From assembly GCA_000004985.1 (NCBI GenBank), contig GG738854.1: 64,000 bases of DNA, one strand, 5' to 3'. Positions 6,457 to 43,279 of this stretch are shown here, piece after piece; position 1 is the first letter of the stretch, and each line of letters begins with the position of its first letter. The DNA is from Naegleria gruberi (taxonomy: Eukaryota). The notes under the pieces were generated by a model that worked only from the letters and a program-made list of their open reading frames with translations, searched no databases and was not told where the DNA came from. Made by a program: the position numbers and the translations under genes.

Positions 6457-9400
6457 ATGTTTCGTTTCTTCTTATTGATAACACTCACACTTGCAGGTTT
6501 CGTGCACCAGCAGATGCATGTCAGTGGAGCCGAATCCAATGTTAAATACATAGTCAAGACCTATTCAACTCTACCAGCCAACACCAATCCAAATGCCATT
6601 CAATTCTATAACCACAAGATGTATGTAACAGGTTCCACTAATAACATCTATGCAGTTTCGAATAATGGAAGTTATACCATCGTAAACCCAATATCCACTT
6701 TGGATGCTCCAACAGGAATACATATTGTGGATGATTGGCTCTATGTTTCTAATAGTGGATCTCAGAAAGTTTCCAAGATGTATTTAAATGATTCTCCAAT
6801 TCAAGTATTTGATGTTTTAACATTTTATCCTAATACGAATCTTTTTGTTTTATCAGAAAGTGAATTGTATGCAGTCGATAAGAATAATAACTTGATTCGA
6901 CACTGGAAGGATAGTTCCTTTGCATTGGTTAGTGTTGGCAGTCTTAATGGACCGAATGGAATTTTTATTCGAAACAATACTATTTACTTTACCGAAAATG
7001 GAGCTCGTACATTGAAAGCAATCGATCAAAATAATCAAATTTCAATTCTTGCTTCAGATATTAATGCGTATTCAGTATATGTCACTGAAGATAATGTCAT
7101 TTTCTTTACAGATTATGTTGGTAGCCTAATTTGGAGAATTAAAGACGGTCAATCTTCGGTAATTGCTGGATATTCAGGAAGTTCTGGTAATGATAATAAG
7201 GAGAATGTCAATGCCACTTCTAGTAGTGTAACTCTTCCTACTGGAATAACATTTGACAACTTGACAGGTATAATTTACTTTGCAGAAATTTCCAATCAAC
7301 GAATTCGTGGATTGATTCCATATTGTGAAACAGCTGGACATTACTTGAATGCACAAAAGTCACGTTGTGTGTCAAGTGTCTGTTCAGGAGTTGACAGCAC
7401 CAACTCTTCTGTTTGTTCATCACGTGGTATTTGTAATCAAACCAATCAATGCTCATGCCAATCAAAGTATTTTGGTGATAATTGTGAATTGACAAGTTGT
7501 AATGGAATTCAAAGTAATTCAAATTTGGTTTGTTCTGGAAATGGAACTTGTCAAGATTACAATTTTTGTAATTGTAAGAATGGTTTGCTTGGAAAGAATT
7601 GTCAAATTGCAACTTGCTTTGGAATTTTATCCAATCAAACAAGTGCTTGCAGTAGTGGAAGAGGTATTTGTCAAGGAATGGATTTTTGTAATTGTTCGAA
7701 AGGTTTCGTCGGCCAAGATTGTGCTGAACATACATGTGGAGGCATTTCTTATAATAACACAGCAACTTGTTCTGGAAATGGAACGTGTGTTGGTGTAGAT
7801 AGCTGTTCTTGCAAGGAGGGTTTTTATGGAGATAACTGTCAAATGCCAAAATGTTTTTCAATCATGTCAAATGACACGAGTGTTTGCTCTGGTAATGGAG
7901 AATGTATTGGAAAAGATAAGTGCAATTGTAAGAGTGATTATTCTGGATATCGTTGTGAAATAACTTCATGTTTCGGTATCCCATCAAACTATTCGAATGT
8001 TTGTTCTGGAAATGGAAATTGCACTTTCAAAGATTTCTGTAATTGCACATTTGGATATTTAGGTAAACAATGTGAAGTTGCTCCTTGTTATGGAATTCCA
8101 GCAAATTATTCGAATGTCTGTTCTGGAAATGGAAATTGTAATGGAAAAGATAATTGTAATTGTCAACCAGGATTTTCAGGAAATCAATGTGAAATTCCAA
8201 CTTGTTTTGGAATTTTGGGAAACAGTTCAATGGCGTGCTCTGGCAATGGAGAATGTCAAAATTTAGATCAATGCAATTGTAATTCAAATTATACTGGATC
8301 AAAATGTGATGTTCCTATATGTTTCGGTATTGCAAAAAGTTCTAGTTTAGTTTGCTCAGCTATTGGAAATTGTACGAAACCTGATTTTTGTGAATGTCCA
8401 TCAAATTATGAAGGATACGAATGTCAATTTCGCATCACTCCAAGAAAATTACAAACTAATGGCATTCCAACTGCAATTGTCCAAGGAATTTCCACAACTT
8501 TTGATTTGAAAGTTATTGGAATGGAATTGAGAACATTTAGTGATCTAGTCAACTCGAGAAAGGATTGTGGAGTGACATGTTCACTTTCTTTATCATATAG
8601 TTGGTATTTGAAGGATAGAGACAATGGTTCACCGTTAATTATCCAACATTCGAATACCGCATTTGGAAATACGAAATATCTTTCGTCTTCAACTTTCCAG
8701 TTGACTTTCTCACCTGTTATTTCAATTGGTTTTACTAGAATTTTAAGTAGAAATGTAACTTTGACATTTGAAATTGTATCTGGTGGTGAAAATGTTTCAA
8801 TTTCTCAAGATATCTTGATTATTTCACCTCTGTTGAGAACTAAAGGTTTAGGTAAGATTCAACCAAGTTCTGGAATCGCACTTGGTTCCTTATTTTCAAT
8901 AGAGGAAGATAAGAATCTTTGGACAGTCTCGGAAGAAAGTAAGAAATATCTTGAACCTTTTCAATTTGCCTTTGGTTTCTTTTACAATCAAGAATTAGTA
9001 AGAATCTCTGATTTTTCCATAAATGGGATGGATTTATTGTTCCTTCCATATTTGAACGCAAATAATAGTAATGGACAAAGTGAAAATTTGGATATTTATG
9101 TTATCTGTAAGGATGCTTTAAAGAATGAATATTCTTCTCTTATTGGTACTGTTTCAATTAGTCCAAATTTGGTAAACACAGTTGAAGAATTGAAAAATCA
9201 AATTGATGATATTGCACGCATTATTCCTTATGACTCTTCATGGAAGTTTAGAGATCTGAAAGAATACAGCTCTGTTATTATCGAGTCTGTCAGCAAGTTG
9301 AGTATTGACATTAATAATCCATCAAATACTTTAACAACTCTTCGACAATTGACAAGCCAAAGTGTTGCTTCTTCTTACCAAGTTGGTTCTATCATTAATG

Positions 9401-11697
9401 ATAAGATTGATTCTTACTTATCTTCTTTAAATCAAGTTTATAAGAAGGAAAAGGAAACTAATGGATATGTTTCTAATAGATTGACAAATTCTGATTTGAA
9501 GAATACTTTATCAAGTGCTAGTAACTTGCTTTTCTTTGGATTTTCCAATATCTCAAGCCTTTGTACTCAATTATCATCCGTTTTATTGTATCAACAGTCA
9601 ACCAAGATAGTTTCCAACTCAATTGACTATTCGAAATATTCAACTGAATTAATTAACATTACAGTTTCGTCATTTGTCAAGAGCAATTCCAGTATCAAGG
9701 CACTACAATTCTCTGACATTTTTCTAGATTCAGATTACATTCTTAACAAGTATAACGGTTACAATAAGGAAATTGGTCTTTCCTTAATTTCTTACAATTC
9801 GAAACTATATAATTCAAGCCAAACTCAAATAACCAACTCCAAAGATTTCACTCTTTATATGGGAGGAGAGGCTCTTCCTCTATCAGAATTAGTTCAACCT
9901 ATCTACATTTCATTTTCTGTTCAAAATTTGACTTCTTTGAATCAATCCCTTGTCAAGTGTCAATTTTGGAATGAAACAACAGAAAAATGGGATAATCAAG
10001 GATGTTCCTTGCATGTATTCAATCAAGCTACTGGCGAAGTGACCTGTAAATGCACTCACACTACTCTATTCGCTGCCTTTGTTGAACAATCATTCAATGA
10101 AACTCTGGTTGACCAAGTAGTATTGAAAGAGTTATCGAATTTGTACATTGCTCAAATTTCCTTTGGAGTTCTCTTCCTAATGCTTTCTAGTACATTACTA
10201 GTTGGTTTGATTATCATGAGAAAATCTCAACCATTAGCAAGTCGTTTCGTCACACCATTTATAGGAATGATTGCCTTAATAGTGGAATGTATCTTGTTGC
10301 TTATAACACAGAGAAGCATTTTATTGTCAGAACAGAATGGATGGTCTGAATCCACAGCTATACAAGTGGAAAGTTCAGATTTGGCAGCCAATATTGTTTC
10401 GAATATTATCGCCATTATTGTAAACACTTTGACTTTGACAGCAATGTTTGCTTATTTGTATCAAATTTCCAGATATCACATTCTGAAATATTTCTATCAC
10501 AAGCTTTCCATCAAGTTTTCCCTCAATTCTGGTCAAAAAGAAAGTGAACGAAACTTGTCCCTAATTAGACAGCTCTTGTCAACCAAAGCCATGATCACAA
10601 TCATCACTACTTTTGTAATTTTGAACCTATTATACTGGACTCTCTGGGTTATCCTTGTGAGAACTTCAGCAATTACAGGAGTTGCCTATTCTTACATTGT
10701 TTCAATTTCATTCACTGTGATTCTTCTTTGTTTAGGATTCATGATTTGTGGTTTGATTGGATTAGATGTTTTCATGACTCTTATGAATGAGAGAAAGGAA
10801 AAGTCAATTGTCAATAATGGTAATCAAGAAAACGCAAGTCAGTCCAGTAATTCATTGCAAAAGTTTGATAAGGAGGCCACCAAGAAAATAGCCAAGATTA
10901 GTTTATGGAAAGCGTATAATTGGTTTATTAAGATTGACAATCCTCTCTATTTTAGAGGTGAAATGAGTCTTTTCGTGTTGTGTTTCGTATTTTTGAACAT
11001 TTCACAAATTATTGGAATTTCAGGATTGAGTTATAAGAAAGGAGAAAAAATGTCAAGAGTTAATGATTCCATTTCTTTGGTATTCGAAGTCTTGTACTTG
11101 TTCACTTACTTGTTGGTCTTTGGAGGTTATGCATTGTTAGTCAGATTAGTTCAGTTTATTCAACAAAAGAAGAAACAATCATTATCCAAAAATAGAGATT
11201 CTTCTGAGATGGATGAATTAAGCCAAATCTTGAATAATGTGGAAGGATTGAGATTATTGGAGCAATTTAGTGAAAAAGAATATTCCTTAGAGAATTTGCA
11301 TTTATTCTTGGAAATGAAACACAACCAACAATTAATTAAGACATCTGACAATATGGATGAACTTTATGTGTTCATGGATAACGTTTGGTCAACTTACATT
11401 CAAACAGATTCCATTAAGGAAGTTAATATTCCATCCGATTGTAAACGAAATTTCTCTAAAGTGAAAAATTCCCTATTCGAAATTGTCAAGCAGCAAGAAC
11501 CTGAGTTGAAAAATCAAAAACCAATTCCAGAAGAATTGGCAACCGAATTACAACAAGTATTTTCTGTATTGTCTGATCAAATTACTTTCAATTTGAGTGA
11601 TACCTTTTCTAGATTCTCCTTGACTGATGAATATTCCAATTATTTGAATGTATTGGAAACTCAACAAGAGTTATTGAACAAATCCAAGCTAGTTTAG
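6457..11697 (+). CDS. Giant receptor: signal peptide, NHL-like beta-propeller, 12 tenascin/comC-type EGF repeats, GAIN/GPS motif, 7TM and a C-terminal RGS domain (adhesion-GPCR-like 7TM-RGS protein)
   Basis: A single 1746-aa ORF. The signal peptide is MFRFFLLITLTLAGFV, followed by propeller-like blades (NQRIRGL, LPTGITFD). Twelve tandem repeats of the form C.G.G.C....C.C..G..G..C. follow (7390-8440). The GPS consensus CQFWNETTEKWDNQGCSLHVFNQATGEVTCKCTHTTLFAAF lies at about 9960-10080, immediately before seven hydrophobic helices (10130-11160). The RGS consensus (EKEYSLENLHLFLEMKHN ... EVNIPSDCKRNF ... RFSLTDEYSNYL) lies at 11200-11650. Confidence 0.85.
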   Translation: MFRFFLLITLTLAGFVHQQMHVSGAESNVKYIVKTYSTLPANTNPNAIQFYNHKMYVTGSTNNIYAVSNNGSYTIVNPISTLDAPTGIHIVDDWLYVSNSGSQKVSKMYLNDSPIQVFDVLTFYPNTNLFVLSESELYAVDKNNNLIRHWKDSSFALVSVGSLNGPNGIFIRNNTIYFTENGARTLKAIDQNNQISILASDINAYSVYVTEDNVIFFTDYVGSLIWRIKDGQSSVIAGYSGSSGNDNKENVNATSSSVTLPTGITFDNLTGIIYFAEISNQRIRGLIPYCETAGHYLNAQKSRCVSSVCSGVDSTNSSVCSSRGICNQTNQCSCQSKYFGDNCELTSCNGIQSNSNLVCSGNGTCQDYNFCNCKNGLLGKNCQIATCFGILSNQTSACSSGRGICQGMDFCNCSKGFVGQDCAEHTCGGISYNNTATCSGNGTCVGVDSCSCKEGFYGDNCQMPKCFSIMSNDTSVCSGNGECIGKDKCNCKSDYSGYRCEITSCFGIPSNYSNVCSGNGNCTFKDFCNCTFGYLGKQCEVAPCYGIPANYSNVCSGNGNCNGKDNCNCQPGFSGNQCEIPTCFGILGNSSMACSGNGECQNLDQCNCNSNYTGSKCDVPICFGIAKSSSLVCSAIGNCTKPDFCECPSNYEGYECQFRITPRKLQTNGIPTAIVQGISTTFDLKVIGMELRTFSDLVNSRKDCGVTCSLSLSYSWYLKDRDNGSPLIIQHSNTAFGNTKYLSSSTFQLTFSPVISIGFTRILSRNVTLTFEIVSGGENVSISQDILIISPLLRTKGLGKIQPSSGIALGSLFSIEEDKNLWTVSEESKKYLEPFQFAFGFFYNQELVRISDFSINGMDLLFLPYLNANNSNGQSENLDIYVICKDALKNEYSSLIGTVSISPNLVNTVEELKNQIDDIARIIPYDSSWKFRDLKEYSSVIIESVSKLSIDINNPSNTLTTLRQLTSQSVASSYQVGSIINDKIDSYLSSLNQVYKKEKETNGYVSNRLTNSDLKNTLSSASNLLFFGFSNISSLCTQLSSVLLYQQSTKIVSNSIDYSKYSTELINITVSSFVKSNSSIKALQFSDIFLDSDYILNKYNGYNKEIGLSLISYNSKLYNSSQTQITNSKDFTLYMGGEALPLSELVQPIYISFSVQNLTSLNQSLVKCQFWNETTEKWDNQGCSLHVFNQATGEVTCKCTHTTLFAAFVEQSFNETLVDQVVLKELSNLYIAQISFGVLFLMLSSTLLVGLIIMRKSQPLASRFVTPFIGMIALIVECILLLITQRSILLSEQNGWSESTAIQVESSDLAANIVSNIIAIIVNTLTLTAMFAYLYQISRYHILKYFYHKLSIKFSLNSGQKESERNLSLIRQLLSTKAMITIITTFVILNLLYWTLWVILVRTSAITGVAYSYIVSISFTVILLCLGFMICGLIGLDVFMTLMNERKEKSIVNNGNQENASQSSNSLQKFDKEATKKIAKISLWKAYNWFIKIDNPLYFRGEMSLFVLCFVFLNISQIIGISGLSYKKGEKMSRVNDSISLVFEVLYLFTYLLVFGGYALLVRLVQFIQQKKKQSLSKNRDSSEMDELSQILNNVEGLRLLEQFSEKEYSLENLHLFLEMKHNQQLIKTSDNMDELYVFMDNVWSTYIQTDSIKEVNIPSDCKRNFSKVKNSLFEIVKQQEPELKNQKPIPEELATELQQVFSVLSDQITFNLSDTFSRFSLTDEYSNYLNVLETQQELLNKSKLV

Positions 11698-12357
11698 TTC
11701 CTTGTCTTCAACAAAAGTTGCTTATGGTAATAAATTAGAATCTTCATTTAAGCATTTTCAAAGTTTTTTCACTAAATAACAAAGTGAACCTAAATAGAAG
11801 CATTTTCCCTGCCCAATATTTGTAAATAAGCTCATTGTAAAACTACATTGTAAACAAAACTATTTGACTAATATTCTAATCCTTTTCTAAAATAATATAA
11901 TAATCAAAATCAAACATCATCTCCCCAAAGGTCATTTCAAGATATGACAAAGTAACCTTCATTAAGAATCATTAAATCAGATAATAGTCTGCACCATGTA
12001 TTACAATAATAATAACACCACTACTATCATTCACCTCCATAACGACTAATTAATTAACTGTTATTTCGATATCACATAACACAAAGCTTCTCAAGAAAAC
12101 CAACAACAATTTTCAAGTTTGTACTCTTGCGGAGTGGATTCATCCTTTGATTACTGCATTATTTGAAGGCTCAAATCACCTTTTAAAAAAACATCAGAAA
12201 AAAGAACAACACTCAACACTCTTCCCGCCGAGTTTTTTTTCGCTGATCACTCCCTGCATTTTACGTTGTTTGTGTTGTAACTTGAAATATCTTGCTCGGC
12301 ATCACCATCATCATCATTAATAATAATAATTGTAATATTGGAAAAACTAACAACTTA

Positions 12358-13617
12358 ATGAATCCATCAACTGCTCCAAAGGAAGCCATTTTGAGCTCCA
12401 TTCCTGCTCAATACTTCCCTCTCACTATTGTTATTGGCACAATTTCTACCATTGCTACAACATATACCTTGTCAACTTCTCAAGGACATACCAAACCATT
12501 CCCATACACTGATATTACTCACACAGCAAGATTTACTCCAGAAAGATATGTCTTTCGTGTTGGTATGCTTGCTATGGCTGTGGTCATGGCATGGAACTGG
12601 AATTTGCTCTATACTTGGTTGAGAAATGTACAACAACAAATCGATACTCTCCAAAAAAGAGTCAAGCTCATCAAGGAACATAATGAACATAGCCACAGTG
12701 TATTGAACACAATTCTCATGATGAATCCACCTTCTAATCATCTTCTCAACATTATTTGGTACTTGGGTATTGGTGCTTCTGTTGCTATTACTATTTCTTC
12801 CATGTGTATTACTTCTAATAGTGATATGCCTTGGACCATGCACGTTATTGCTGCTTCAAGCTTTTTCATTTTCTGTCTCGTTGCTCAAGGTATTACCACC
12901 TACAAGTCATACAAATTATATCAACAATTGAATCATGTCAGAGAGGAATCAAGTGCTGACGAAAGTCTTGCCGAAATCTCTGCTGATGCTCAAAGTCTTA
13001 CCTTCATGACCAAGAAATCATTGTACTTGAAGATTGGTATTACTGGTCTCAGTATTGCCATGTTGATGGTCAATATATTGAGCAGTGTTGCTGCTACTTC
13101 TGGACAAGGTGCTTCCACCACTGGTTTTGGAAATGTTCAACAACAAGTTAGTCTCTCAAAGTTGAATCTCAATTCTCATATTCCAACAACATCTCAACAA
13201 CAAACTGTTATTGAAGATATTCATTTGAAAACAACAACTAGCAATATTGTTGAATGGACCTGTACCTTGTTGATTGTCATTTACAATATCACCTTTGCTA
13301 TGGATTGGAGTAGTTGTAACTTGTTGACTTCTATTGGTCAAATTAATACCCCACAACCAAAGCAAACACCAGTTCAACAAACACGTAACTTTGGAGTTAC
13401 TCCATCTCATCATGCTTACAATTCTAGTAGATACGGTCAATACGGTCTTGTGCCAAATCATGATCCTGCTACAGAAATGTCAGATGTTACAAACTCTGGA
13501 CGTACTGTTCAACAACAAGCTGTCTATGTCTTCCCATCTTCTGTTTCTTCCAAGCAAGACCAAGATTGTACTCCTGTTGTTACTTCCCTCTATCCTGCAA
13601 CTTATAACATTCAATAA
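12358..13617 (+). CDS. Multipass membrane protein of the Frag1/DRAM/Sfk1 (TMEM150-like) family with an S/T/Q-rich C-terminal tail
   Basis: The ORF 12292..13617 has its first real ATG at 12358. It carries the N-terminal motif PYTDITHTARFTPERYVFRVGML (compare DRAM PYISDTG..PE..F), six predicted TM helices and a Gln/Ser-rich tail. It is intronless. Confidence 0.55.
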   Translation: MNPSTAPKEAILSSIPAQYFPLTIVIGTISTIATTYTLSTSQGHTKPFPYTDITHTARFTPERYVFRVGMLAMAVVMAWNWNLLYTWLRNVQQQIDTLQKRVKLIKEHNEHSHSVLNTILMMNPPSNHLLNIIWYLGIGASVAITISSMCITSNSDMPWTMHVIAASSFFIFCLVAQGITTYKSYKLYQQLNHVREESSADESLAEISADAQSLTFMTKKSLYLKIGITGLSIAMLMVNILSSVAATSGQGASTTGFGNVQQQVSLSKLNLNSHIPTTSQQQTVIEDIHLKTTTSNIVEWTCTLLIVIYNITFAMDWSSCNLLTSIGQINTPQPKQTPVQQTRNFGVTPSHHAYNSSRYGQYGLVPNHDPATEMSDVTNSGRTVQQQAVYVFPSSVSSKQDQDCTPVVTSLYPATYNIQ

Positions 13618-14109
13618 AACATCGTGATGATTCAAATTTTTTTATCAGATGCAATATTGGAACTTTACCATGCGAACTTGAACAATCTACCACACTAACA
13701 GGATGGGTTGAATTCGAATTGTTGGGGAATTTTTAACGACTGACCATTTCAATAGCTCAGGTTCAAAATTTGAATTAGGCCAAGACAACTAGCATCCCAG
13801 ATTAGCATATGAAACATATGCAATTAATCACGTCAACACACATTCGCAACTTTGGGCGCAATAACCACACTCTGAATCTTTTCTGGAATCTCTACTGTGA
13901 AGTTCGGCTGGAACAAATTTCCCGCCTTGAAAACATACGTTTATTTTCGATACAACTATCATCAACAAAAGGAAAAAAATACCACCGTCTGACACCGTCA
14001 TCTCTCTTTCTCTCAAGTTGTTATTGACAACGACGGCATCAACTCTTATCAATAGCATACTAATTTATAGATCAGCTTTGCTTTTGTATTTAGGGCGGGG
14101 CTTATTCAA

Positions 14110-17100
14110 ATGCAAGAAAGGAGTGTTGTAGGTAACCCTTACCAACAACCTCAATCACCTAATAATAATCCTCCAAAAAGACTTGAACGACAACGATCGA
14201 CTACATCGAACATGGCACATAGAATACCAAGTCGTTCCTCACTTGGTGGTAATCGTTCTGGACAAGAAGCAAATAATAGTAATATTAAATTAAAATCAGT
14301 AGAGAATGACCTCATCTCTCGGAGGGGTAGTAAACAATTAAATAGACCTAAAAGCACCATATCTAAGGTTTCTGTAGGAAGTGAAAGAATGAGAGAAGGT
14401 GCTATACAACGAATCGAATCTACAGTATTTCTCTTTATTAATGCTTTAAAACTAGAAAAACCAATTCCTAGGTTTATTTACTTTTTACTTAACTGGATAG
14501 TTATTTGGCAAACTCTTAGTCTGGGAGTATCAATAGATTTTAATTGGGGCGAGTATGGTCGTTATTTATACCATGCTGTGGCTATTCCCCGAACTTTTGG
14601 ATTCCAATTTCTGCCCTATGATGCTTTCATTGGATTGGCTATTGCTGTGTACATATTGGAAATAATAGCTCTATTCACTATTTATCTGACATATAGGTCG
14701 TTCATTAATGGAAGTAAATATTGGTCAAAAATCAAAACAACAGCTAGGATAACATTTGCCCTAATGATTATTATAAGTTTACCTTCAACGTATGGAATGA
14801 GTTCCTCATTTTGGGATTGCGATTATTCTCAAACTGAAACAATTTCTGGAAAGGTTACATTTACCTTGAAAAGATTTCCAACCATTGAGTGTTGGGGAGC
14901 TACCAATGGAGCAATGGCTGCCTTATCAATAATAGCCATGGTTGTACAGATATTTTTCACAACGTTTGCTGTATTTATATTCTGTGATACTAGTATATCA
15001 AGTAAGAGCATGTTTGCAATGGAAAATAGCCTCTTTCTCGCTGTGATTGTCTCCACAAATCAAATCTTCCTTATTGTTTCCCAAGTGACACCATCTATGG
15101 TTTATTATTTAAGACCAGTATACTTTATAGTTGTTTCATTAATTTCAGTAGGAGTTCTTATTTGGCAGACACCTTTTTTGTTCAGATCGATGAATTCAGT
15201 TTATGCAGGGATAACAACAGGTAGAATAGGTGTTGCGGCTGGGTCGCTTGTAGCCACATTAATCAATAAGGAAGATGAGTGGCAAGTTGGGCTAGGAATA
15301 ACATTTGGCCCAGTTGCAGGATTTATAATTTTCTTTTTTATTGGTTTTATTGGTGTGGAAATATATACTAGGGTTTTAAAATCAAGAGGAAGAAAGTTAT
15401 TGGAAGGACTGATGGAGTCAAGAAACATTGCCATCCTCATAGACAAAGACTATTACTACATTACACAATTCATTAGACATTCCACTAAGGCAAATGAGAA
15501 GGAAAAGACTTTAGGAAAAAGCTTCTCCAGAATGGTAGTCAATTACAAAGATGCCATTCCATCCGAGACCCTGCTTGCCATAGCTTTATTTATGAAATAT
15601 GTATTAGAAGACAATTCGACAACCTTTATTCTCATGCTATTGAAAAAGGCTGAAAAACAACGAAATGACTTTTTGACACGATTCAAGCTTTTCCTTAGAT
15701 TCAGAGAAATTGAGAGAGCTACTTCTACAGGAAGAAACAATTTTGAATTGGACCACATTTTGGAGGGAATTCAAAAGAAAAGCTGACTTGTTGAAACATT
15801 TGCAAGTTAGATTTTGGAAGAATGTTGCCTCAGGTCAAGATCTCTACTCTGTTACGAAACAAATGGAAGAAACTTCTACAGAATGCTATCAAACGTTTGG
15901 TAATTTAATGGTCAATCATCACAATAACAAGACTGTCCTCCGAGCATATGCATCATATTTGGAAGAGTTTGCATTTGAACCCCTATTTGCCGAGGAACTA
16001 TACAATGAGGCAAACATTTTAGAAGAAGAAGAGGTTCTCAAATCAAAACCTAAATCTAAAAAGCCTATTACAGCTCCAAAAACAAATCTTGCAAACTTGG
16101 ACGGAAAACTTGTTACCAATCTGGATGATGATGATGCTATCCTAGAATCAGCTAGTCAGCAGGGAGAAATGGATCCAGGTGAGCGTTTAAAGGAACAATA
16201 CAGAACTGCTATCAATAAGAGAGAAGAAAATAATTTCATTCTCATTTTCCTTGTCTCACTATGCGTTGTTTCAATTATTTACATGATCATTACTTTGGCT
16301 ATGGATTTAGCATTCACAAATAAGAACACAAGTATTGTAGAAGTTATTAAGGAAGCTTGTATATTAGGACCTATTCCATACGCTCTTCTTTCTGACATGA
16401 GACGAATTAATTTACTGGATGATGAGAGCTTGATTCAAAATTCAACAAGATTTTTCAATGATTACCAAGTAAGGCTCTCTTCTTTCAAATCAGTTTTGGA
16501 AACTTTTATTCACTCCTCAGAGGGATCATTATTTTCAACAAAAATGAAAGAAGACTTCACAAATAATGACAAATCATACAATGTAAGTGTGTTAATGTTT
16601 TTATTATTTACACCAACTTTATAGGTGGCTATAACCAAACTTGAGAATGTTACAGGAATTGAATTCTTCACCAAAAATGCCTCTATTTCTGCTATTGCAA
16701 ACGCTTTTTCATCTCTTACCAATGAAATTTCCTTATTCAACCTTACAACATATTCAGAAACCTATAGGAATTTCTACTTTTCCATGATGTTCGTTAACAG
16801 ATTGTCATTTACAAATGCTTTTGAACTCTTTTACTCTTCAATGATTTCTGGTGAACTTGTGGATTTACAATACGATACAAATGTGTTTGTGATTGTCTTT
16901 GCTACTCTTACTGCTGCCTATTTTATTTATATCCTTGTTTATCTTGGTATGCTGATCTCACATGTTGGTCATAGAAAGCACATCCTTAAACTGTTTTCAA
17001 ATATTCCAAAACAAGAAGCCTCAAAAATTAGCCATGAATTGGAACTTAAAACTGACAACACCATCATTCCACAAAAGAATTACTTTATTACACCAGTCAG

Positions 17101-20000
17101 AGGAATTATTATTTTGATTTCAATAGCTTTATCCATTACTACCATTGCCTCCGCTCTTATCTTATATGAGGGTCTAACTCAAATGAATAGTTCAATTCTT
17201 GTAATGAGAAAGTTGGAATACTCTTCAAAAGCTCTCATGACTTCTCAAAGAATATTATTCAAGATACAAGAATTATTATTAGAGGATGCATCAGCACTAG
17301 GTGTAAACAAGACTCAATTCTTCCATGAAATTGATGCTCATATTATGGATTTTGAACAGGGTTGGACTGCTTTAAGGTATGGTACTGCAGAAGACTCTTT
17401 CAGTTCCCTCTCTGGAGTGACGGGTATAATTGATGAGTTATTACAATCATCTAATTGCTCTTTGTCGAGTAATTCTAGTGTTGCAAGCGAATGTACTGGG
17501 CTTGACTCAATTGTAGAGGACTTTGACGGCTCAGTTTTGAAGTTAAACCAAAATGCATTCAGGGAAACATTTTCTAGAGATGTATTACTTGATGAGCTAC
17601 AGGCAGTTTATGATCAGAGTGTAGAGTTGTTCAATAGTTTTTCCATTATTATGAATTCTTATGTTTCAAACTTTTCCAATCAGCAAAAAGTTATTGGAGC
17701 TGTATCTACCTCATTGGCTTCCTTTTTCCTTTTGATTACAGTATTTTTGTTATATAGAGCAATTAGCAGTTTTGGAAGTGAAAATCACCAACTGAGAATC
17801 ATGCTAAACCATTTGCCAGTGGACATTCTCGATAGTGATGGTGATATTCGTTCATATATCATGTATTATACCCTTGGAAACTCAAAGAAAAAGTCTGACA
17901 AGAATGGACAACAAGTGAGTAATGAAAAAGCTATTCTTGAGGCAGCTGTTGCTGGAACAGCAGTTTGTTCTTCATATGGATCAATTGATATTTTCAACGA
18001 ATCTGCTCAAAAGATGTTTGGGTACAGATTGGATGAAGTGATTGGTGTGTCTTTGGCTCAAATGTTTACTAATGAAAGTCAGCCATCACTTCATAGTGTG
18101 CTTTCCAATATGGCAATTTCATCTAAAACTTATGGTGAAAACTTGACATTACAAGGTCAAAGAAAGAATAAGACAACCTTCCCAGTTCAACTCAGAATTT
18201 CAGTATCAGTAATTGAGGGAAGAAATATTATATCTTGTTTTATGACAGATTTAACAACAGATAGAGAGCATGATCTCATGTTGGCAGAAGAAAAGAAGAA
18301 GAGTGAATCATTACTTCTTAACATTCTTCCAGAGTCTATTGCACAACGACTTTCAAATGGAGAAACATTTATTGCTGACAGTCACGAGGATGTCACTTGT
18401 TTGTTCAGTGACTTGGTAGGATTTGTTGAGGTTTCTGTACACATGTCCGCAACTGAGCTTGTGCAAACTTTGAATATTATTATTAATGGTTTTGATTCTC
18501 TTGTGCCAATTTATCAAATAGAAAAAATCAAGACTATTAGTGAGAAATACTTTTGTGCTGGAGGTCTTAAGGTCAGGTCTGATGAAGGAGACCATCCTGA
18601 AGAGAGAACTCTTAAATTTGCTATGGATATGTTTGGAGTTGTCTACAATTACAACACAGATTTTCACAGAAACTTTACTGTTCGTATTGGTATGCATTGT
18701 GGACCATTGGTAGCCGGTGTTTGTGGTACTTTGAAGTTTGCTTATGACTTGTGGGGAGATGCTGTAAATGTAAGTTATTGTTTTCACTTGTATTTTGCTA
18801 ACTACTAAATAGACTGCTTCAAGAATGGAGTCTACAGGTAAATCTGGAAGAATTCAAATCACAGAAAAGTTACACAGCAAATTATGTGGAAAGTATCAAT
18901 TTGAAAAGTCTAGTGTTGTGGCAAAAGGAAAAGGAGAAATGACCACATATCTATTGAGCACTGAATACTATCAAAACACTTCTCCAGATGCTATGCCACT
19001 AGACAGTACCCTGAAAATTAGAGCAAGAGCTATGGGACATCCTGTTGGTGATGAATTCTCTGAACATCATTCCGAGAGTGGTCAACAAATGGAAGGAACA
19101 GAAGATTTTAAAAATATTAAACCCTCCACACCACCTCCGACCAGTCAAACCTTGAATCCAGTATTAGCCACCATAACTAAAGTTTCCTCATTATCTTCTC
19201 TAACTTCTGCTGCAGAAAAGGAGGAAAAGGAATTAGTTGCTAATGCCAATAACAACAATAATAACAGTACTCCCTCCCTAAACGTTGATCCAGTAGCTGG
19301 TTCAAATAATTCAACAACAACAACTGGACTTGATTCAATTCTTAGTAGATCTAGAAGTTTGTCTGTTAAGGTACAGCAACCAGTATTGCTTGATTTAAAG
19401 AATACAGAGAATAATAACTCTGGCAATCTTAGAAGATTCTCTCTTCCTCGATCAGGATCACCAATTTCTCCAGTCGGTTCTGAAATTAGAAATCCATTTA
19501 GTCCTGCCAAACAAACCAGCAACAGTAACGTGACAAGCAATGTGACCATACCAAACAATACTACAAACGAAGCTACGGAAACAACTGAAGTATCTACAAC
19601 TCCACCGCCTTCATCTTCTGTTTTAACAAATCAACATATTGAACTTCCACTATTACCAACAACTCAATCCCTTAGTAGTAATTCTCAAAGTAGAAATTCA
19701 AGTAGAAGAGCTAGCGTGAGCTCAGAGTGCTCATCTTCATCTTCAGGCACTCTTGAGATTATGAATAAGCCAGTGTTGAATGGGAATATTAGAAGATCAA
19801 TAGAGAGGCAAAAGATTTATGACCAAGAAACACACAGATATAGCGAACAAGATTCAGATGATGAGAATAAGAGTGTATTAGAAGTTCACAAGTTAAGGCG
19901 AGCATCTCAACCTTATGTAAATATGGACCATCATCACAGACATGAAAGTAATAGTTCATCCTCTGAAAACCATGCACTAAAGGAAGAAGAAAAAGAGTAA
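14110..20000 (+). CDS. Class III nucleotidyl (adenylyl-type) cyclase with an N-terminal multi-TM block, a two-TM-flanked extracytoplasmic loop and a PAS domain; four ORF segments joined by two ~42-nt introns and one unexplained frame break
   Basis: Segments: 14110..~15700 (Ser-rich N-terminus plus 7-8 TM helices), ~15677..16582, 16625..18769 and 18813..20000. The introns are about 16583..16624 (GTAAGT..TATAG) and 18770..18812 (GTAAGT..AAATAG). A PAS-like region lies at 17890-18250. The cyclase core is LLNILPESIAQRL..FSDLVGF..KTISEKYF..GMHCGPLVAGVCG..YDLWGDAVN|TASRMESTG and spans the second intron. Lys and Asp at the substrate-specifying positions point to an ATP-type enzyme. The C-terminus is a long Ser/Thr/Asn-rich tail. 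The frame break at 15677-15786 has no GT..AG that could account for it. Confidence 0.8.
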
Positions 20001-20647
20001 AGTTCACAAAAAAATGCCATTGCACAATGACACCATTCATGATGATATTGTAGTTTTCCAGAAACCATGACATAAATTTTTTCACCTCAACACCAATCAT
20101 TTTTCCATCTCATCCATGTTGATCATTAAAATCCATCTATTCAATCTGTTTTTTGATCAATCTATCAAACAATCGATCATGATTAATCAACAATTTCAAT
20201 CATATTGAATAAAGACTTGATGTTATTTGAAAAGGCTCAATTTTCAGCTAATTATCAAAAGATGTTGTTTGATTTCTTGTGATGTTTCAAAATAAAGAAC
20301 TTTAAAACACAAAAAGTTGTTTTTCCAAGTTGCTTAAAATCATGTTAGAAGCCAATCTCCTCCGATGTGGCATTTGAATATAAATTTCTTATAATCCTTT
20401 CTGAGCTCAACGACAGAAGGTTGCTCCGAACCTTTTTCCACGAATATGTCAAGTGCTCACTCTTGATTTTAATTTGGGATATGGATATTGCAATATTACA
20501 TAAGAGTGTTGGTTCTTGATTAATGATTGCTTACACAAGTTTGGACGTTATTGCTCCTGAACATGTGGTTTTGTTCAAAGAACACCTTATCAAATTTGCT
20601 TTCATTCTCTCCCTTTTTTCAAGTGTTTTATTTATCATGTCAAGTCT

Positions 20648-20697
20648 NNNNNNNNNNNNNNNNNNNNNNNNNNNNNNNNNNNNNNNNNNNNNNNNNN
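20648..20697. other. Assembly gap (run of 50 N)
   Basis: Literal n characters in the sequence. Confidence 1.
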
Positions 20698-20722
20698 TTA
20701 TTTAACAGATCTATCATAAAAA

Positions 20723-22714
20723 ATGTTCACAAACCAAAAGCCACTAACCATCATCACATTACTACTACTCGTTGTCTTGTTTGTGTTTGGAGAAGGAAAA
20801 CTGTCTTTCGCTCAGGACAAAGTTCTTGTCCACTCCTTTGCCAACAAGACATCAATTTCTCCTTTTTATTTCATAAACGGAGCTGAATTTCCAGGTGCAA
20901 CTGGTTCCATGTCCCTCATTTCTGATGGTTTCAATTCTGGTACTTCTGCTAGAATTTCATATAACTTGACAGCTGGCGCCTATGTTGCTGCAATTTACAA
21001 TTTTCCAACTCCACTCAGTTTTACAAAACTTACCTTTGCTATTCGATATGCATGTGCACAAAATGTCAAAGTTTCTTTTAGATTGACGGATTCTACTGGA
21101 CAAACTTTCCAAATGACTGGACTAAACATGCCATTCGAATCTTTGATGAAAGGTTGGTCAGAGGTTTACTTTCAACCAACAAATGCAACTGAATTTTGGG
21201 GAGGAGCCAATGATGGAATATTTCACATGCCATTCAAACAATTTTCCATCGTTTTGGGTCTTGTAGAAAAGATTTCCTCAACTGTCGGCTGTCTAGATTT
21301 TGACAATTTCTATGCCATGAATGAAACTCAACCAATTCAATTGAATTTAACTAATAGAGTGGCAGTACCATGGCCAGGTGACATGTTGTCCAAGATGGGA
21401 GTCTGTGTCCATTCAGCAAATACTGCAGAATTGGATGCAGCCAAAAATGCAGGTTTTTCCATGATTAGAATTGACTTGTTTTGGTCATGGGTTGAATCCA
21501 GTCGTGGAAAATACGTCTGGACAAGCTTTGATTCAATTGTTACCAATTTGAAAGCTAGAAATATGACAGCTCTCTTTATTCTGACCTATAACAATGATTT
21601 ATATAAGGATTCGAATGGTGGTTTCAATGCCACGACCATTGAGGCATTTGCAAATTATTCCAGAGCTGCTGCAAAACATTTTGCAGGAACTGGAACGAAA
21701 TTTGAAATTTACAATGAGGCCAATGGAAATGGGTTTACAGGAGCGACGTATGCTCCATTGGCTGCAGCTGCAATTAAGGCAGTTCATGAGGGAGATTCGA
21801 ATGCTAAAGTTTCGACTAGTGGATTGTCTGGATTTGATTATAATTTCTTAATTAATGAGTTGTTGGGTGGTGCTGGACAGGAGGCAGATGCCATTGGATT
21901 GCATCCGTATGGAGTTGGATATAAATCAGGAGTTGGATCGATGGTTGACGGAGCTAGACTTTACAAGAGCTATGTCAGTAAATATTTACAATCAACCAGA
22001 AGTTCCATTCCACCTGTATGGGATACTGAGATGGGTTTAACCTCTACAGATTACGATCCAACTGGAAGCACCAATGGACACAACTCTGTGGCCATGAGAA
22101 TCCAAGCCAATCGTGCAGTTGAAAGATTACTTGCATCCATGGCCGTAGGTTTCGAAATGTTTCAATATTACGATCTGAGAAATGATGGAAATGATCCAAC
22201 CAATCGTGAACACAACTTTGGCCTCCTCTTCAATAATTACACTGAAAAACCAGCTTTTAAATCAGTCAAGCAATTAAGCAAAATGGTTAGTGGAAAGATA
22301 TTCGATTCATTTATTAGAACTGCACCTTCTCCGTTGACTGCCATGAGGTTTGTGAATGAGAATGAAACTCTTGTGATTGTTTTTGCACAAGTTCAGGATA
22401 TTAAGGCAAAGATTGTGTTGGTTCAAACTCCAAAATTGATTCTTGATGTTTTTGGAAATCAATTGACAGCTAGTCAAAATTCATTGACAGTTACCGATAA
22501 GGATGGAGCAATTTATTTGTTGTATGACAATGAGAAGGTAACTCCTAGTAGTAGTTCAGTTTCTCCAAAGGCAACTTCTTCATCAAGTTTGAAACCAGGA
22601 GCTTCGAATAGAGCTATTGGAAAGTCAACAATAACTTCAGATTCAGGAGTTTCTAATAGATTTTATACATGTTTGATCGCCTGTTTGGCAATCTTGATGA
22701 TCATGTTGCAATAA
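20723..22714 (+). CDS. Secreted, probably GPI-anchored clan GH-A (GH5-like TIM-barrel) glycoside hydrolase with an N-terminal accessory domain
   Basis: Signal peptide MFTNQKPLTIITLLLLVVLFVFG. The catalytic acid/base-type motif FEIYNEANG (a variant of the NEP motif) lies in a beta/alpha-barrel-like region. The C-terminus has a Ser-rich stalk and a hydrophobic tail, FYTCLIACLAILMIMLQ*, typical of a GPI signal. It is intronless. Confidence 0.6.
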   Translation: MFTNQKPLTIITLLLLVVLFVFGEGKLSFAQDKVLVHSFANKTSISPFYFINGAEFPGATGSMSLISDGFNSGTSARISYNLTAGAYVAAIYNFPTPLSFTKLTFAIRYACAQNVKVSFRLTDSTGQTFQMTGLNMPFESLMKGWSEVYFQPTNATEFWGGANDGIFHMPFKQFSIVLGLVEKISSTVGCLDFDNFYAMNETQPIQLNLTNRVAVPWPGDMLSKMGVCVHSANTAELDAAKNAGFSMIRIDLFWSWVESSRGKYVWTSFDSIVTNLKARNMTALFILTYNNDLYKDSNGGFNATTIEAFANYSRAAAKHFAGTGTKFEIYNEANGNGFTGATYAPLAAAAIKAVHEGDSNAKVSTSGLSGFDYNFLINELLGGAGQEADAIGLHPYGVGYKSGVGSMVDGARLYKSYVSKYLQSTRSSIPPVWDTEMGLTSTDYDPTGSTNGHNSVAMRIQANRAVERLLASMAVGFEMFQYYDLRNDGNDPTNREHNFGLLFNNYTEKPAFKSVKQLSKMVSGKIFDSFIRTAPSPLTAMRFVNENETLVIVFAQVQDIKAKIVLVQTPKLILDVFGNQLTASQNSLTVTDKDGAIYLLYDNEKVTPSSSSVSPKATSSSSLKPGASNRAIGKSTITSDSGVSNRFYTCLIACLAILMIMLQ

Positions 22715-23802: not shown

Positions 23803-25599
<1,797 letters not shown>

Positions 25600-43013: not shown

Positions 43014-43279
43014 TTCCTCACAACACTTTTCACACTCTCCCACAACCCAACATAACCAAGCATTTCAGAGATCAAATGCTATTGAACCAATTAAAGAACA
43101 ACCTTCCACTTAATAATCCTTGTTTCCCTTCCAATAGCTAGAGCTGTAATATGCATCATTGAGTCGCATGATTGTTGTTGGTATTTAGCCACCCATTCAA
43201 AAAAAACAACGACAAACACTCGGTGTTCCATCATCACACATCTTTTGTTGAATTATTTGGGGATGATGATAGTGCCACT

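What the first reader, a model, noticed from the sequence alone, without database searches (positions are those of the whole stretch)
14110..20000. Multi-TM / extracytoplasmic-loop / PAS / class III cyclase gene with an ATP-type specificity pair (Lys, Asp) and a Glu replacing the second metal-binding Asp
Four ORF segments form one gene. This is supported by two in-frame 42-43-nt introns; the second one splits the universally conserved WGD.VN|TASRMES motif exactly as expected. The N-terminal 7-8-helix block is followed by a two-TM-flanked loop of about 170 aa (similar to a bacterial sensor domain), then PAS, then the cyclase. In the catalytic core the first metal Asp is present (FSDLVGF). The canonical TIGDAY is TISEKY (Asp to Glu). 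The substrate-specifying positions are Lys (KTIS) and Asp (YDLWG), which is the adenylyl-cyclase pattern. The sensor-cyclase architecture and the Glu substitution both deserve inspection.
Basis: partly seen in the sequence, partly recalled or inferred. Interest (0 to 1): 0.6.

Follow-up and report, generated by a model that had tools for sequence, protein, structure and literature searches.

The report
Naegleria receptor-type adenylyl cyclase, C2-like half
This is one real gene of a Naegleria amoeba for a 12-helix membrane receptor fused to a cAMP-making domain. Its odd glutamate, matched by a sister gene with the opposite defects, suggests the two proteins work only as a pair, as the two halves of animal adenylyl cyclases do.

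Summary
Window 14110-20000 (+) is one gene of about 1,934 codons from a Naegleria gruberi-complex amoeba. It is collinear with orthologues in N. lovaniensis (56% identity) and Willaertia magna. Both short GT-AG introns (42 and 43 nt) are real.

The 15677-15786 frame break is a single extra G at 15782. A 98.7%-identical metagenomic contig lacks it.

- an 8-TM block with no solved structural relative
- TmcB-type TPR repeats
- two TM-flanked extracytoplasmic four-helix bundles, similar to bacterial chemoreceptor and kinase sensors
- PAS domain
- class IIIa transducer helix
- cyclase domain
- a disordered tail

The catalytic assignments are correct: Asp1420, Lys1460, Glu1464 (in place of the second metal Asp), Arg1511, Asp1532, Asn1539, Arg1543.

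The new point concerns the family. About 230 representatives share this membrane module, and the named ones are all Heterolobosea. Most complete cyclase domains in the family are fully canonical. The window's clade has Glu or Ser at metal site 2. Its sister clade keeps both Asp but has lost the transition-state Asn and Arg. All four organisms examined carry both types.

These are the natural equivalents of the Rv1625c mutants D300A and R376A, which complement each other. The best reading is a C1/C2-like obligate heterodimer, inferred and not shown.

The parts
14110..15781 (+). Exon 1, part before the frame break (residues 1-557). Holds the disordered N-terminus, the 8-TM block (about 14419-15384) and the first half of the TPR_TmcB-like domain.
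   Evidence: ORF. Collinear with P0001 and P0002. AF2 model of the orthologue shows 8 TM helices plus a beta-hairpin with invariant Cys237 and Cys261.
15782..15782 (+). Extra G that causes the +1 frame break. It is either a sequencing or assembly error, or a very recent strain- or allele-specific lesion.
   Evidence: Absent from contig L001, which is 98.7% identical and reads ...EGIQKKTDLLKHL. Orthologues are continuous here. Codon differences downstream are 13 synonymous to 6 nonsynonymous.
15783..16582 (+). Exon 1, part after the frame break. Holds the rest of the TPR_TmcB-like domain (to about 16045), an acidic linker, TM9 (16223-16300) and the first half of ectodomain 4HB-1.
   Evidence: Pfam TPR_TmcB 31.3 bits against a cut-off of 27. 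Hydropathy. AF2 model.
16583..16624 (+). Intron 1, 42 nt, GT-AG, with an in-frame TAG.
   Evidence: Sequence. Orthologues have no insert here. This is the only indel inside the gene, apart from G15782, that is not a multiple of 3 (2 nt at 16620-16621, against L001).
16625..18769 (+). Exon 2. Holds the rest of 4HB-1, TM10 (16877-16957), a cytosolic linker, TM11 (17099-17167), ectodomain 4HB-2 (17168-17686, with Cys1102 and Cys1114), TM12 (17687-17761), PAS (17921-18256), the transducer helix (18260-18367) and most of the cyclase domain.
18542..18544 (+). Codon of Glu1464, at the position of the second metal-binding Asp (Rv1625c D300, tmAC C1 D440).
   Evidence: Aligned to the AC9 C1 'GDCYY' Asp. 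Glu in all four orthologues. Asp in 93 of 96 nearest cyclase-domain relatives and in most family members.
18770..18812 (+). Intron 2, 43 nt, GT-AG with a CTAAC branch site. It lies directly after the Asn1539 codon.
   Evidence: Sequence. Splicing restores VN|TASRMES, which aligns without a gap to AC9 C2. A distant orthologue (L003) has a 38-nt GT-AG intron 9 nt upstream in the same motif.
18813..20000 (+). Exon 3. Holds the end of the cyclase domain (to about 18965, including Arg1543 at 18822-18824), a Ser/Thr/Asn-rich tail of about 340 aa that is poorly conserved, and the stop codon at 19998-20000.

Best explanation
The locus encodes a 12-TM receptor-type class IIIa adenylyl cyclase of a Naegleria gruberi-complex amoeba.

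Topology, inferred from the models, conserved Cys pairs and TM parity:
- N-terminus in the cytosol
- 8-TM block
- cytosolic TmcB-type TPR domain
- TM9, extracellular four-helix bundle 1, TM10
- short cytosolic linker
- TM11, extracellular four-helix bundle 2 with a conserved Cys pair, TM12
- cytosolic PAS domain
- transducer helix
- one cyclase domain
- disordered tail

The cyclase domain keeps the ATP-specifying Lys and Asp, the transition-state Asn and Arg, and the first metal Asp. It has Glu at the second metal position.

Most likely mechanism (inferred): this protein is the 'C2-like' subunit of an obligate heterodimer with its sister paralogue. That paralogue is represented by N. gruberi NAEGRDRAFT_69664, N. 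lovaniensis C9374_010202 and W. magna ABK040_006139.

The partner supplies two canonical metal Asp residues. The window protein supplies Lys, Asp, Asn and Arg. Together they form one fully canonical ATP site.

The Glu of this protein and the partner's lost Asn and Arg all fall in the second site, which is pseudo-symmetric and degenerate. That site could serve for regulation, as the forskolin site does in animal enzymes.

Signals sensed by the ectodomains and/or the PAS domain would be passed through the transducer helices to the dimer.
For: Shown:
- Single gene and splice structure.
- Domains.
- Residue assignments.
- Confident models: pLDDT 90.3 and 90.1.
- The family with this N-terminal module has 232 representatives, and its long members end in a cyclase domain.
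- 24 of the complete cyclase domains read D-K-D-R-D-N-R.

Basis for the heterodimer inference:
- The window clade has Glu at metal site 2: window, P0001, P0002 and P0277. P0132 (inside the clade in the tree) has Ser there, as does the fragment P0009, which was not in the tree. All retain K, D and N; Arg is seen wherever the sequence reaches that far (P0132 is cut off before it).
- The closest paralogue clade reads D-K-D-R-D-[T/I]-K in N. gruberi, N. lovaniensis, W. magna and an unknown heterolobosean.
- NJ bootstrap: window clade 91%, partner core 98%, the two as sisters 63%.
- Both types occur in all four organisms examined, including within the same metagenome samples.
- Metal ligands come from one subunit, and K, D, N and R from the other (PMC6592433).
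- Rv1625c D300A and R376A are each inactive and restore activity together (PMC4821796).
- Toxoplasma GC1 likewise has Glu at a metal Asp, in the half that supplies Asn and Arg.
Against: - Asp to Glu is conservative, and Glu is strictly kept in all four orthologues rather than drifting. It may still bind metal, so a homodimer could be active.
- Support for the sister relation of the two clades is only moderate (63%).
- The two genes are not adjacent. There is no paralogue in the 64-kb window, and the W. magna genes lie about 45 gene models apart by locus-tag number (ABK040_006139 and _006184).
- Any canonical family member could also supply the missing residues.
- No expression, interaction or activity data exist.
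- No multimer model could be run.
- The copy in this window carries a frameshift.
Confidence: 0.55

Rival explanations
1. The protein is a self-sufficient homodimeric adenylyl cyclase. Glu1464 acts as a true metal ligand, perhaps shifting the Mg/Mn preference or lowering basal activity. The sister paralogue is unrelated to its function.
For: All other catalytic residues are canonical. Glu is invariant in four orthologues spanning Naegleria, Willaertia and an unknown heterolobosean, which suggests selection for a carboxylate. From my own knowledge, not tested here: in the homologous GGDEF palm domain, Asp and Glu interchange at a metal-binding position.
Against: Asp occupies this position in 93 of 96 nearest relatives and in nearly all family members. 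The same clade contains Ser variants that still keep K, D and N (the fragment P0009, which also keeps R, was not in the tree). That fits a half that does not need its own metal site. The reciprocal loss of Asn and Arg in the sister clade would then be a coincidence.
Confidence: 0.27
2. The protein is a catalytically dead pseudo-cyclase. The cyclase domain would serve only as a dimerisation or regulatory module of a TmcB-like membrane protein. Alternatively, in this strain the gene is a pseudogene because of the frameshift.
For: The window sequence carries a +1 frameshift at 15782. The metal site is non-canonical.
Against: Six of seven catalytic positions are strictly conserved over deep divergence. 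About 1,377 codons downstream of the break have no other lesion. Differences from L001 are mostly synonymous (20:7 overall, 13:6 downstream), and coding indels are multiples of 3.
Confidence: 0.1
3. The window protein heterodimerises with a fully canonical family member rather than with the Asn/Arg-deficient sister paralogue.
For: Many canonical paralogues with the same membrane module exist in the named members, which are all Heterolobosea. Any of them could supply two Asp residues.
Against: The complementary defects sit in the closest paralogue. That paralogue shares 35-38% full-length identity with the window protein, against 30% or less for the others. It co-occurs with the window type in 4 of 4 organisms.
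Confidence: 0.08

Closest known systems
Mammalian membrane adenylyl cyclases (tmAC; best PDB hit is the AC9 C2 domain, 6r3q/7pd4)
   Same: Class IIIa cyclase domain preceded by the helical/transducer element. The C2-type 'IEKIKTIG' and 'YD[IL]WGD.VN.ASRM[ED]S' motifs are present (127 bits to C2 against 81 bits to C1). There are 12 TM helices per catalytic unit. The proposed logic is one catalytic site and one degenerate site, built from complementary halves.
   Different: One cyclase domain per chain, so two genes rather than one fused chain. The TM layout is 8+2+2, not 6+6. It has two extracellular four-helix bundles, a TPR domain and a PAS domain. Its metal positions are D/E, whereas in the alignment AC9 C2 has neither Asp.
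Mycobacterium tuberculosis Rv1625c/Cya
   Same: A single-cyclase-domain membrane protein of class IIIa that must dimerise. The engineered D300A and R376A mutants are individually inactive and complement each other (PMC4821796). These are the same two kinds of positions that differ naturally between the window clade and its sister clade.
   Different: Rv1625c is naturally a canonical homodimer with a 6-TM anchor and no ectodomain. Here the complementary changes are natural, conserved and carried on separate genes.
Heterodimeric or pseudo-heterodimeric guanylyl cyclases (sGC alpha/beta; Toxoplasma ATPaseP-GC GC1/GC2)
   Same: Catalytic residues are split between two homologous halves. Toxoplasma GC1 has Glu in place of one metal Asp, in the half that provides Asn and Arg (PMC6592433).
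   Different: Those enzymes use GTP-type specificity residues (E/A, E/C) and different regulatory modules (H-NOX, P4-ATPase). Here the pair is Lys/Asp, the ATP type.
Dictyostelium TmcB-type proteins (Pfam PF25474, TPR_TmcB)
   Same: The TPR segment between the TM block and TM9 matches PF25474 above its gathering score (31.3 against 27 bits). Relatives score higher (up to 67.8 bits).
   Different: I could not retrieve or compare TmcB itself. No function is described in the papers I could search. Whether TmcB shares the whole 12-TM module or carries a cyclase was not tested.
Bacterial four-helix-bundle periplasmic sensor domains (Tar/Tsr, PcaY, PilJ/McpN, NarX, TorS, NasR NIT)
The Naegleria adenylate/guanylate cyclase expansion
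   Same: This gene is one of the many membrane cyclases reported for the genus: 'at least 81 cyclases' (PMC9928731).
   Different: That survey does not describe the architecture or the catalytic-residue classes. The orthologues are annotated only as hypothetical or predicted proteins.

Membership tests
Class III nucleotidyl cyclase (Pfam PF00211) | Cyclase homology domain detectable by profile | tested here: met
   Guanylate_cyc E 2e-45, 155 bits, profile positions 3-182 of 183. AC9, AC5, AC8 and Rv1625c give E 1e-61 to 1e-31.
Class III nucleotidyl cyclase (Pfam PF00211) | Two metal-binding Asp residues | tested here: not met
   The first Asp is present (D1420). The second is Glu (E1464), aligned to the AC9 C1 'GDCYY' Asp. 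Glu is conserved in the orthologues. Many accepted family members (tmAC C2, sGC beta) also lack these Asp residues, so this bears on autonomous catalysis, not on fold membership.
Class III nucleotidyl cyclase (Pfam PF00211) | Transition-state Asn and Arg, and the phosphate-binding Arg | tested here: met
   N1539, R1543 and R1511.
Adenylyl (not guanylyl) cyclase specificity | Lys and Asp at the purine-specifying positions | tested here: met
   K1460 and D1532 align to K and D of AC9 C2. Product identity (cAMP) was not assayed.
Class IIIa subclass | Helical cyclase-transducer element directly before the domain, and tmAC/Rv1625c-type motifs | tested here: met
   Alignments to AC9 C2 start in the helix 'LAEEKKKSESLLLNILPESIAQRL'. 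The Pfam HNOBA C-terminal segment (positions 192-216) matches weakly.
Obligate heterodimeric class III cyclase (tmAC C1/C2, sGC type) | Complementary loss of catalytic residues in two co-occurring homologous halves | tested here: met
   The window clade reads D-K-[E/S]-R-D-N-R and the sister clade D-K-D-R-D-[T/I]-K. Both occur in 4 of 4 organisms.
Obligate heterodimeric class III cyclase (tmAC C1/C2, sGC type) | Physical heterodimer, with activity only on co-expression | not testable with these tools
   Needs biochemistry or at least a multimer model.
TmcB-like proteins (Pfam PF25474 TPR_TmcB) | Profile match above the gathering score | tested here: met
   31.3 bits against a cut-off of 27, profile positions 31-122 of 125. 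The orthologues and paralogues also carry it.
PAS domain | Profile match; bound cofactor or ligand | tested here: inconclusive
   PAS_9 51 bits and PAS 29 bits, both above their cut-offs. I saw no LOV-type NCRFLQ motif on reading the sequence. The cofactor or ligand is unknown.
4HB_MCP / NIT / PilJ-type sensor domains | Four-helix-bundle ectodomain flanked by TM helices | tested here: met
4HB_MCP / NIT / PilJ-type sensor domains | Sequence-family membership | tested here: not met
   No such Pfam hit at E<=0.1. Identity to the structural matches is 3-14%. This is a fold resemblance only.
Metazoan-type tmAC | Two 6-TM bundles and two cyclase domains in one chain | tested here: not met
   One cyclase domain, with TM layout 8+2+2.

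The most novel reading that the evidence does not exclude
Heteroloboseans may have evolved, independently of animals, a two-gene equivalent of the C1/C2 adenylyl cyclase. Two sister 12-TM receptor subunits, each with two extracellular four-helix-bundle sensors and a PAS domain, would be catalytically useless alone. Together they would form one ATP site and one degenerate, possibly allosteric, site. The 8-TM block is a membrane fold with no solved relative.
Probability: 0.45. Interest if true: 0.65.

Novelty: new variant of a known kind. Interest (0 to 1): 0.5.

Why it matters
If the pairing is real, it is a natural and evolutionarily recent replay of how a homodimeric cyclase turns into an asymmetric C1/C2 enzyme. 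The two halves are still on separate genes, and canonical homodimeric paralogues sit beside them for comparison.

It also offers a membrane cyclase whose membrane part has clear extracellular sensor domains. That bears on the open question of whether the membrane anchors of adenylyl cyclases act as receptors.

Practically, the finding:
- corrects a gene model that a frameshift would split;
- gives a domain map for a family annotated only as 'hypothetical' in Naegleria, a genus that includes the pathogen N. fowleri.

Tried and rejected
- **Intron or programmed frameshift at 15677-15786.** Rejected. There is no GT-AG candidate, and the near-identical contig L001 simply lacks G15782.
- **First frame correction.** I initially deleted an A of the A-run, which gives KKA. 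L001 shows that the extra base is the G, which gives KKT.
- **The search for homologous proteins with PAS plus cyclase domain.** Timed out. Repeated with the cyclase domain alone. That list was dominated by short bacterial proteins and did not even return P0001, so it says little about which organisms have orthologues.
- **The search of protein representatives with the frame-corrected sequence.** Re-run with exact fragments.
- **Exact look-up of the neighbouring GH5-like ORF.** Nothing on record. The assembly the window comes from is not in that collection, so the species call rests on L001 and L002.
- **Literature on TmcB.** Nothing usable.
- **Literature on Glu at the metal site.** Only the Toxoplasma GC1 case. 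PMC2447327 is held only in part and gave nothing.
- **Internal duplication of the two TM-loop-TM modules.** hhalign is only borderline: probability 49%, E 1.7e-4, collinear. Left open.
- **N-glycosylation sequon density as a topology test.** Not discriminating, because the PAS domain is as rich in sequons as the loops.
- **Shared intron position with the partner gene.** Not found. N. gruberi L002 has no intron in the WGE..SKMES motif.


Full report
**What is in the sequence**

The window is eukaryotic and about 35% G+C. On the + strand four ORFs abut: 14110-15786, 15710-16624, 16625-18808 and 18825-20000.

Between the second and third ORF lies GTAAGT...TATAG, at 16583-16624 (42 nt, with an in-frame TAG). 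Between the third and fourth lies GTAAGT..CTAAC..AATAG, at 18770-18812 (43 nt). Removing both, and one base at the first junction, gives a 1,934-codon reading frame with no internal stop.

**One gene**

A word-indexed search with the joined protein found two hits:
- Naegleria lovaniensis C9374_012229 (P0001, 1,981 aa): 56% identity over 96% of the query.
- Willaertia magna ABK040_006184 (P0002): 37% identity.

The three-way alignment is collinear from residue ~57 to ~1600. It crosses the frame break (...DHILEGIQKK-DLLKHLQVRFW against ...DHILDGILKSSSLLRHLQVRFW) and both intron sites without gaps.

**The frame break**

An ENA metagenome contig (L001; sample ERZ929261, 4,738 bp) is 98.7% identical to window 13400-18146. 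Base by base, the comparison shows:
- The window has one G (15782) that L001 lacks. L001 therefore reads straight through as ...EGIQKKTDLLKHL.
- The two coding indels are 3 and 6 nt.
- The only other indel inside the gene that is not a multiple of 3 is 2 nt, and it lies inside predicted intron 1.
- Upstream non-coding DNA carries 17-nt and 2-nt indels.

Codon differences are 20 synonymous to 7 nonsynonymous overall, and 13 to 6 downstream of the break.

So the reading frame is under purifying selection on both sides of the break. The introns behave as non-coding DNA. G15782 is either an error or a very recent or allelic lesion; reads are needed to decide.

**Which organism**

In the same metagenome sample, a second contig (L002) encodes a protein 100% identical to N. 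gruberi NEG-M NAEGRDRAFT_69664. The window therefore comes from the N. gruberi complex.

**A distant orthologue**

Contig L003 (sample ERZ27315067; protein P0277, 46% identical to P0001) has the same upstream neighbour as the window, a Frag1-family gene. It also has a 38-nt GT-AG intron in the same WGD/AVNT motif, 9 nt upstream of the window's intron 2.

**Architecture**

Pfam finds Guanylate_cyc (2e-45), PAS_9 (1.7e-13) and TPR_TmcB (2e-7, above its gathering score). It finds nothing in the first 558 residues. Hydropathy gives an N-terminal cluster of TM helices plus four isolated, strong TM helices at ~705-730, 909-935, 983-1005 and 1179-1203.

I predicted structures for the N. lovaniensis orthologue. 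Spliced or frame-corrected window sequences are not accepted by the tool.
- **Residues 130-750** (pLDDT 90.1): eight TM helices, a beta-hairpin between TM3 and TM4 carrying two invariant Cys residues, then a stack of paired helices, which is the TPR part.
- **Residues 736-1275** (pLDDT 90.3, pTM 0.85): all-helical. Each pair of TM helices extends into a four-helix bundle. Bundle 1 has an added hairpin. The Cys pair of bundle 2 is invariant or nearly so across 55 family members.

TM parity and the Cys pairs place the TPR, PAS and cyclase domains in the cytosol, and the hairpin and both bundles outside the cell (inference).

They are possibly an old duplication (hhalign probability 49%). A TPR domain precedes them.

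**Catalytic residues**

Alignment to AC9 puts D1420 on the first metal Asp and E1464 on the second ('GDCYY' of C1). K1460 and D1532 fall on the adenine-specifying Lys and Asp of C2, and N1539 and R1543 on the transition-state pair.

The domain scores higher against C2 (127 bits) than against C1 (81 bits). It is preceded by the class IIIa helical element.

**Family context**

A profile of the N-terminal module (residues ~95-1235) finds only 232 representatives among 1.84 billion proteins. The named ones are Naegleria, Willaertia and Pharyngomonas. The long ones all end in PAS plus a cyclase domain.

- In the family, 24 complete cyclase domains read D-K-D-R-D-N-R.
- Among the 96 nearest cyclase-domain relatives from any organism, 93 have Asp at the second metal site.
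- The window clade differs: the window protein, P0001, P0002 and P0277 have Glu. N. gruberi 60042 has Ser, as does an N. fowleri fragment. All keep K, D and N; Arg is seen wherever the sequence reaches that far.
- The closest paralogues have both Asp residues, but Thr or Ile for Asn and Lys for Arg ('WGE[NT]V[TI]..SKMES'). These are N. gruberi 69664, N. lovaniensis C9374_010202, W. magna 006139, and L004 from the same sample as L003.
- In an NJ tree of 41 full-length members, the window clade has 91% bootstrap support, the partner core 98%, and their sister relation 63%.
- Both types are present in all four organisms examined.

**Mechanistic reading**

In class III dimers, one subunit gives the metal ligands and the other gives the base-specifying and transition-state residues (PMC6592433).

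Pairing a window-type subunit with a partner-type subunit yields one fully canonical site. All of the substitutions collect in the other site.

Rv1625c D300A and R376A are the engineered equivalents. Each is inactive alone, and together they are active (PMC4821796). Toxoplasma GC1 offers a natural precedent for Glu in the half that does not bind the metals.

I therefore favour a C1/C2-like obligate heterodimer (confidence about 0.55) over an autonomous homodimer with a Glu metal ligand (about 0.27). The strict conservation of Glu, rather than drift, is the main argument for the homodimer. Nothing here shows physical pairing or activity.

**Comparison and novelty**

The cyclase domain is an ordinary class IIIa domain, and large cyclase repertoires in Naegleria are known (PMC9928731). 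Three things appear not to be described in the literature I could search:
- the 12-TM TmcB-type module with two four-helix-bundle ectodomains;
- the fold of the 8-TM block;
- the reciprocal degeneration of two sister receptor cyclases.

I rate this a new variant of a known kind, of moderate interest.

Noticed in passing
window 6457-11697 (+): A 1,746-aa ORF with teneurin-like EGF repeats, a GPS (GPCR proteolysis site) motif and a C-terminal RGS domain. It looks like an adhesion-GPCR-like receptor fused to RGS, and may be related to the seven-transmembrane RGS proteins described in N. fowleri (title of PMC9283941, listed; the paper was not read).
   Followed up: no
window 12292-13617 (+) and L003 1963-2853: A Frag1/DRAM/Sfk1-family gene lies directly upstream of the cyclase gene, both in the window and in a distant orthologous locus from a metagenome. 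This is conserved microsynteny across roughly 50% protein divergence.
   Followed up: partly
window 20723-22714 (+): A 663-aa ORF with a weak GH5 cellulase-family match, an N-terminal hydrophobic signal-like segment and a hydrophobic C-terminal tail. An exact-sequence look-up found no record.
   Followed up: partly
window ~20640-20700 and within 58000-59000: Runs of N totalling 100 bases (scaffold gaps), so the window comes from a scaffolded draft assembly. This makes a base-level error at 15782 plausible.
   Followed up: no
window 32-2479 (+), 24370-25599 (-), 35694-38111 (-), 43172-46054 (+): Ordinary neighbours: proteasome subunit RPN1 (cut by the window start), a pyridine nucleotide-disulphide oxidoreductase, an ankyrin-repeat protein, and an ORF that ends in the first ~65 residues of a protein kinase domain and probably continues after an intron.
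   Followed up: no
P0175 (Pharyngomonas kirbyi transcript), P0132 (N. gruberi NAEGRDRAFT_60042), P0009 (N. fowleri FDP41_008682): These are further family members with degenerate metal sites that keep Lys, Asp and Asn (and Arg where the sequence is complete): Thr+Glu in Pharyngomonas, and Ser at site 2 in N. gruberi and N. fowleri. 'C2-like' halves may have arisen more than once in Heterolobosea.
   Followed up: partly
P0002 (Willaertia magna ABK040_006184), alignment columns ~1071-1151 of A1: The W. magna gene model lacks TM11 and the first helix of ectodomain 2, which are present in both Naegleria sequences. This is probably an over-called intron in that annotation rather than a real deletion.
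   Followed up: no
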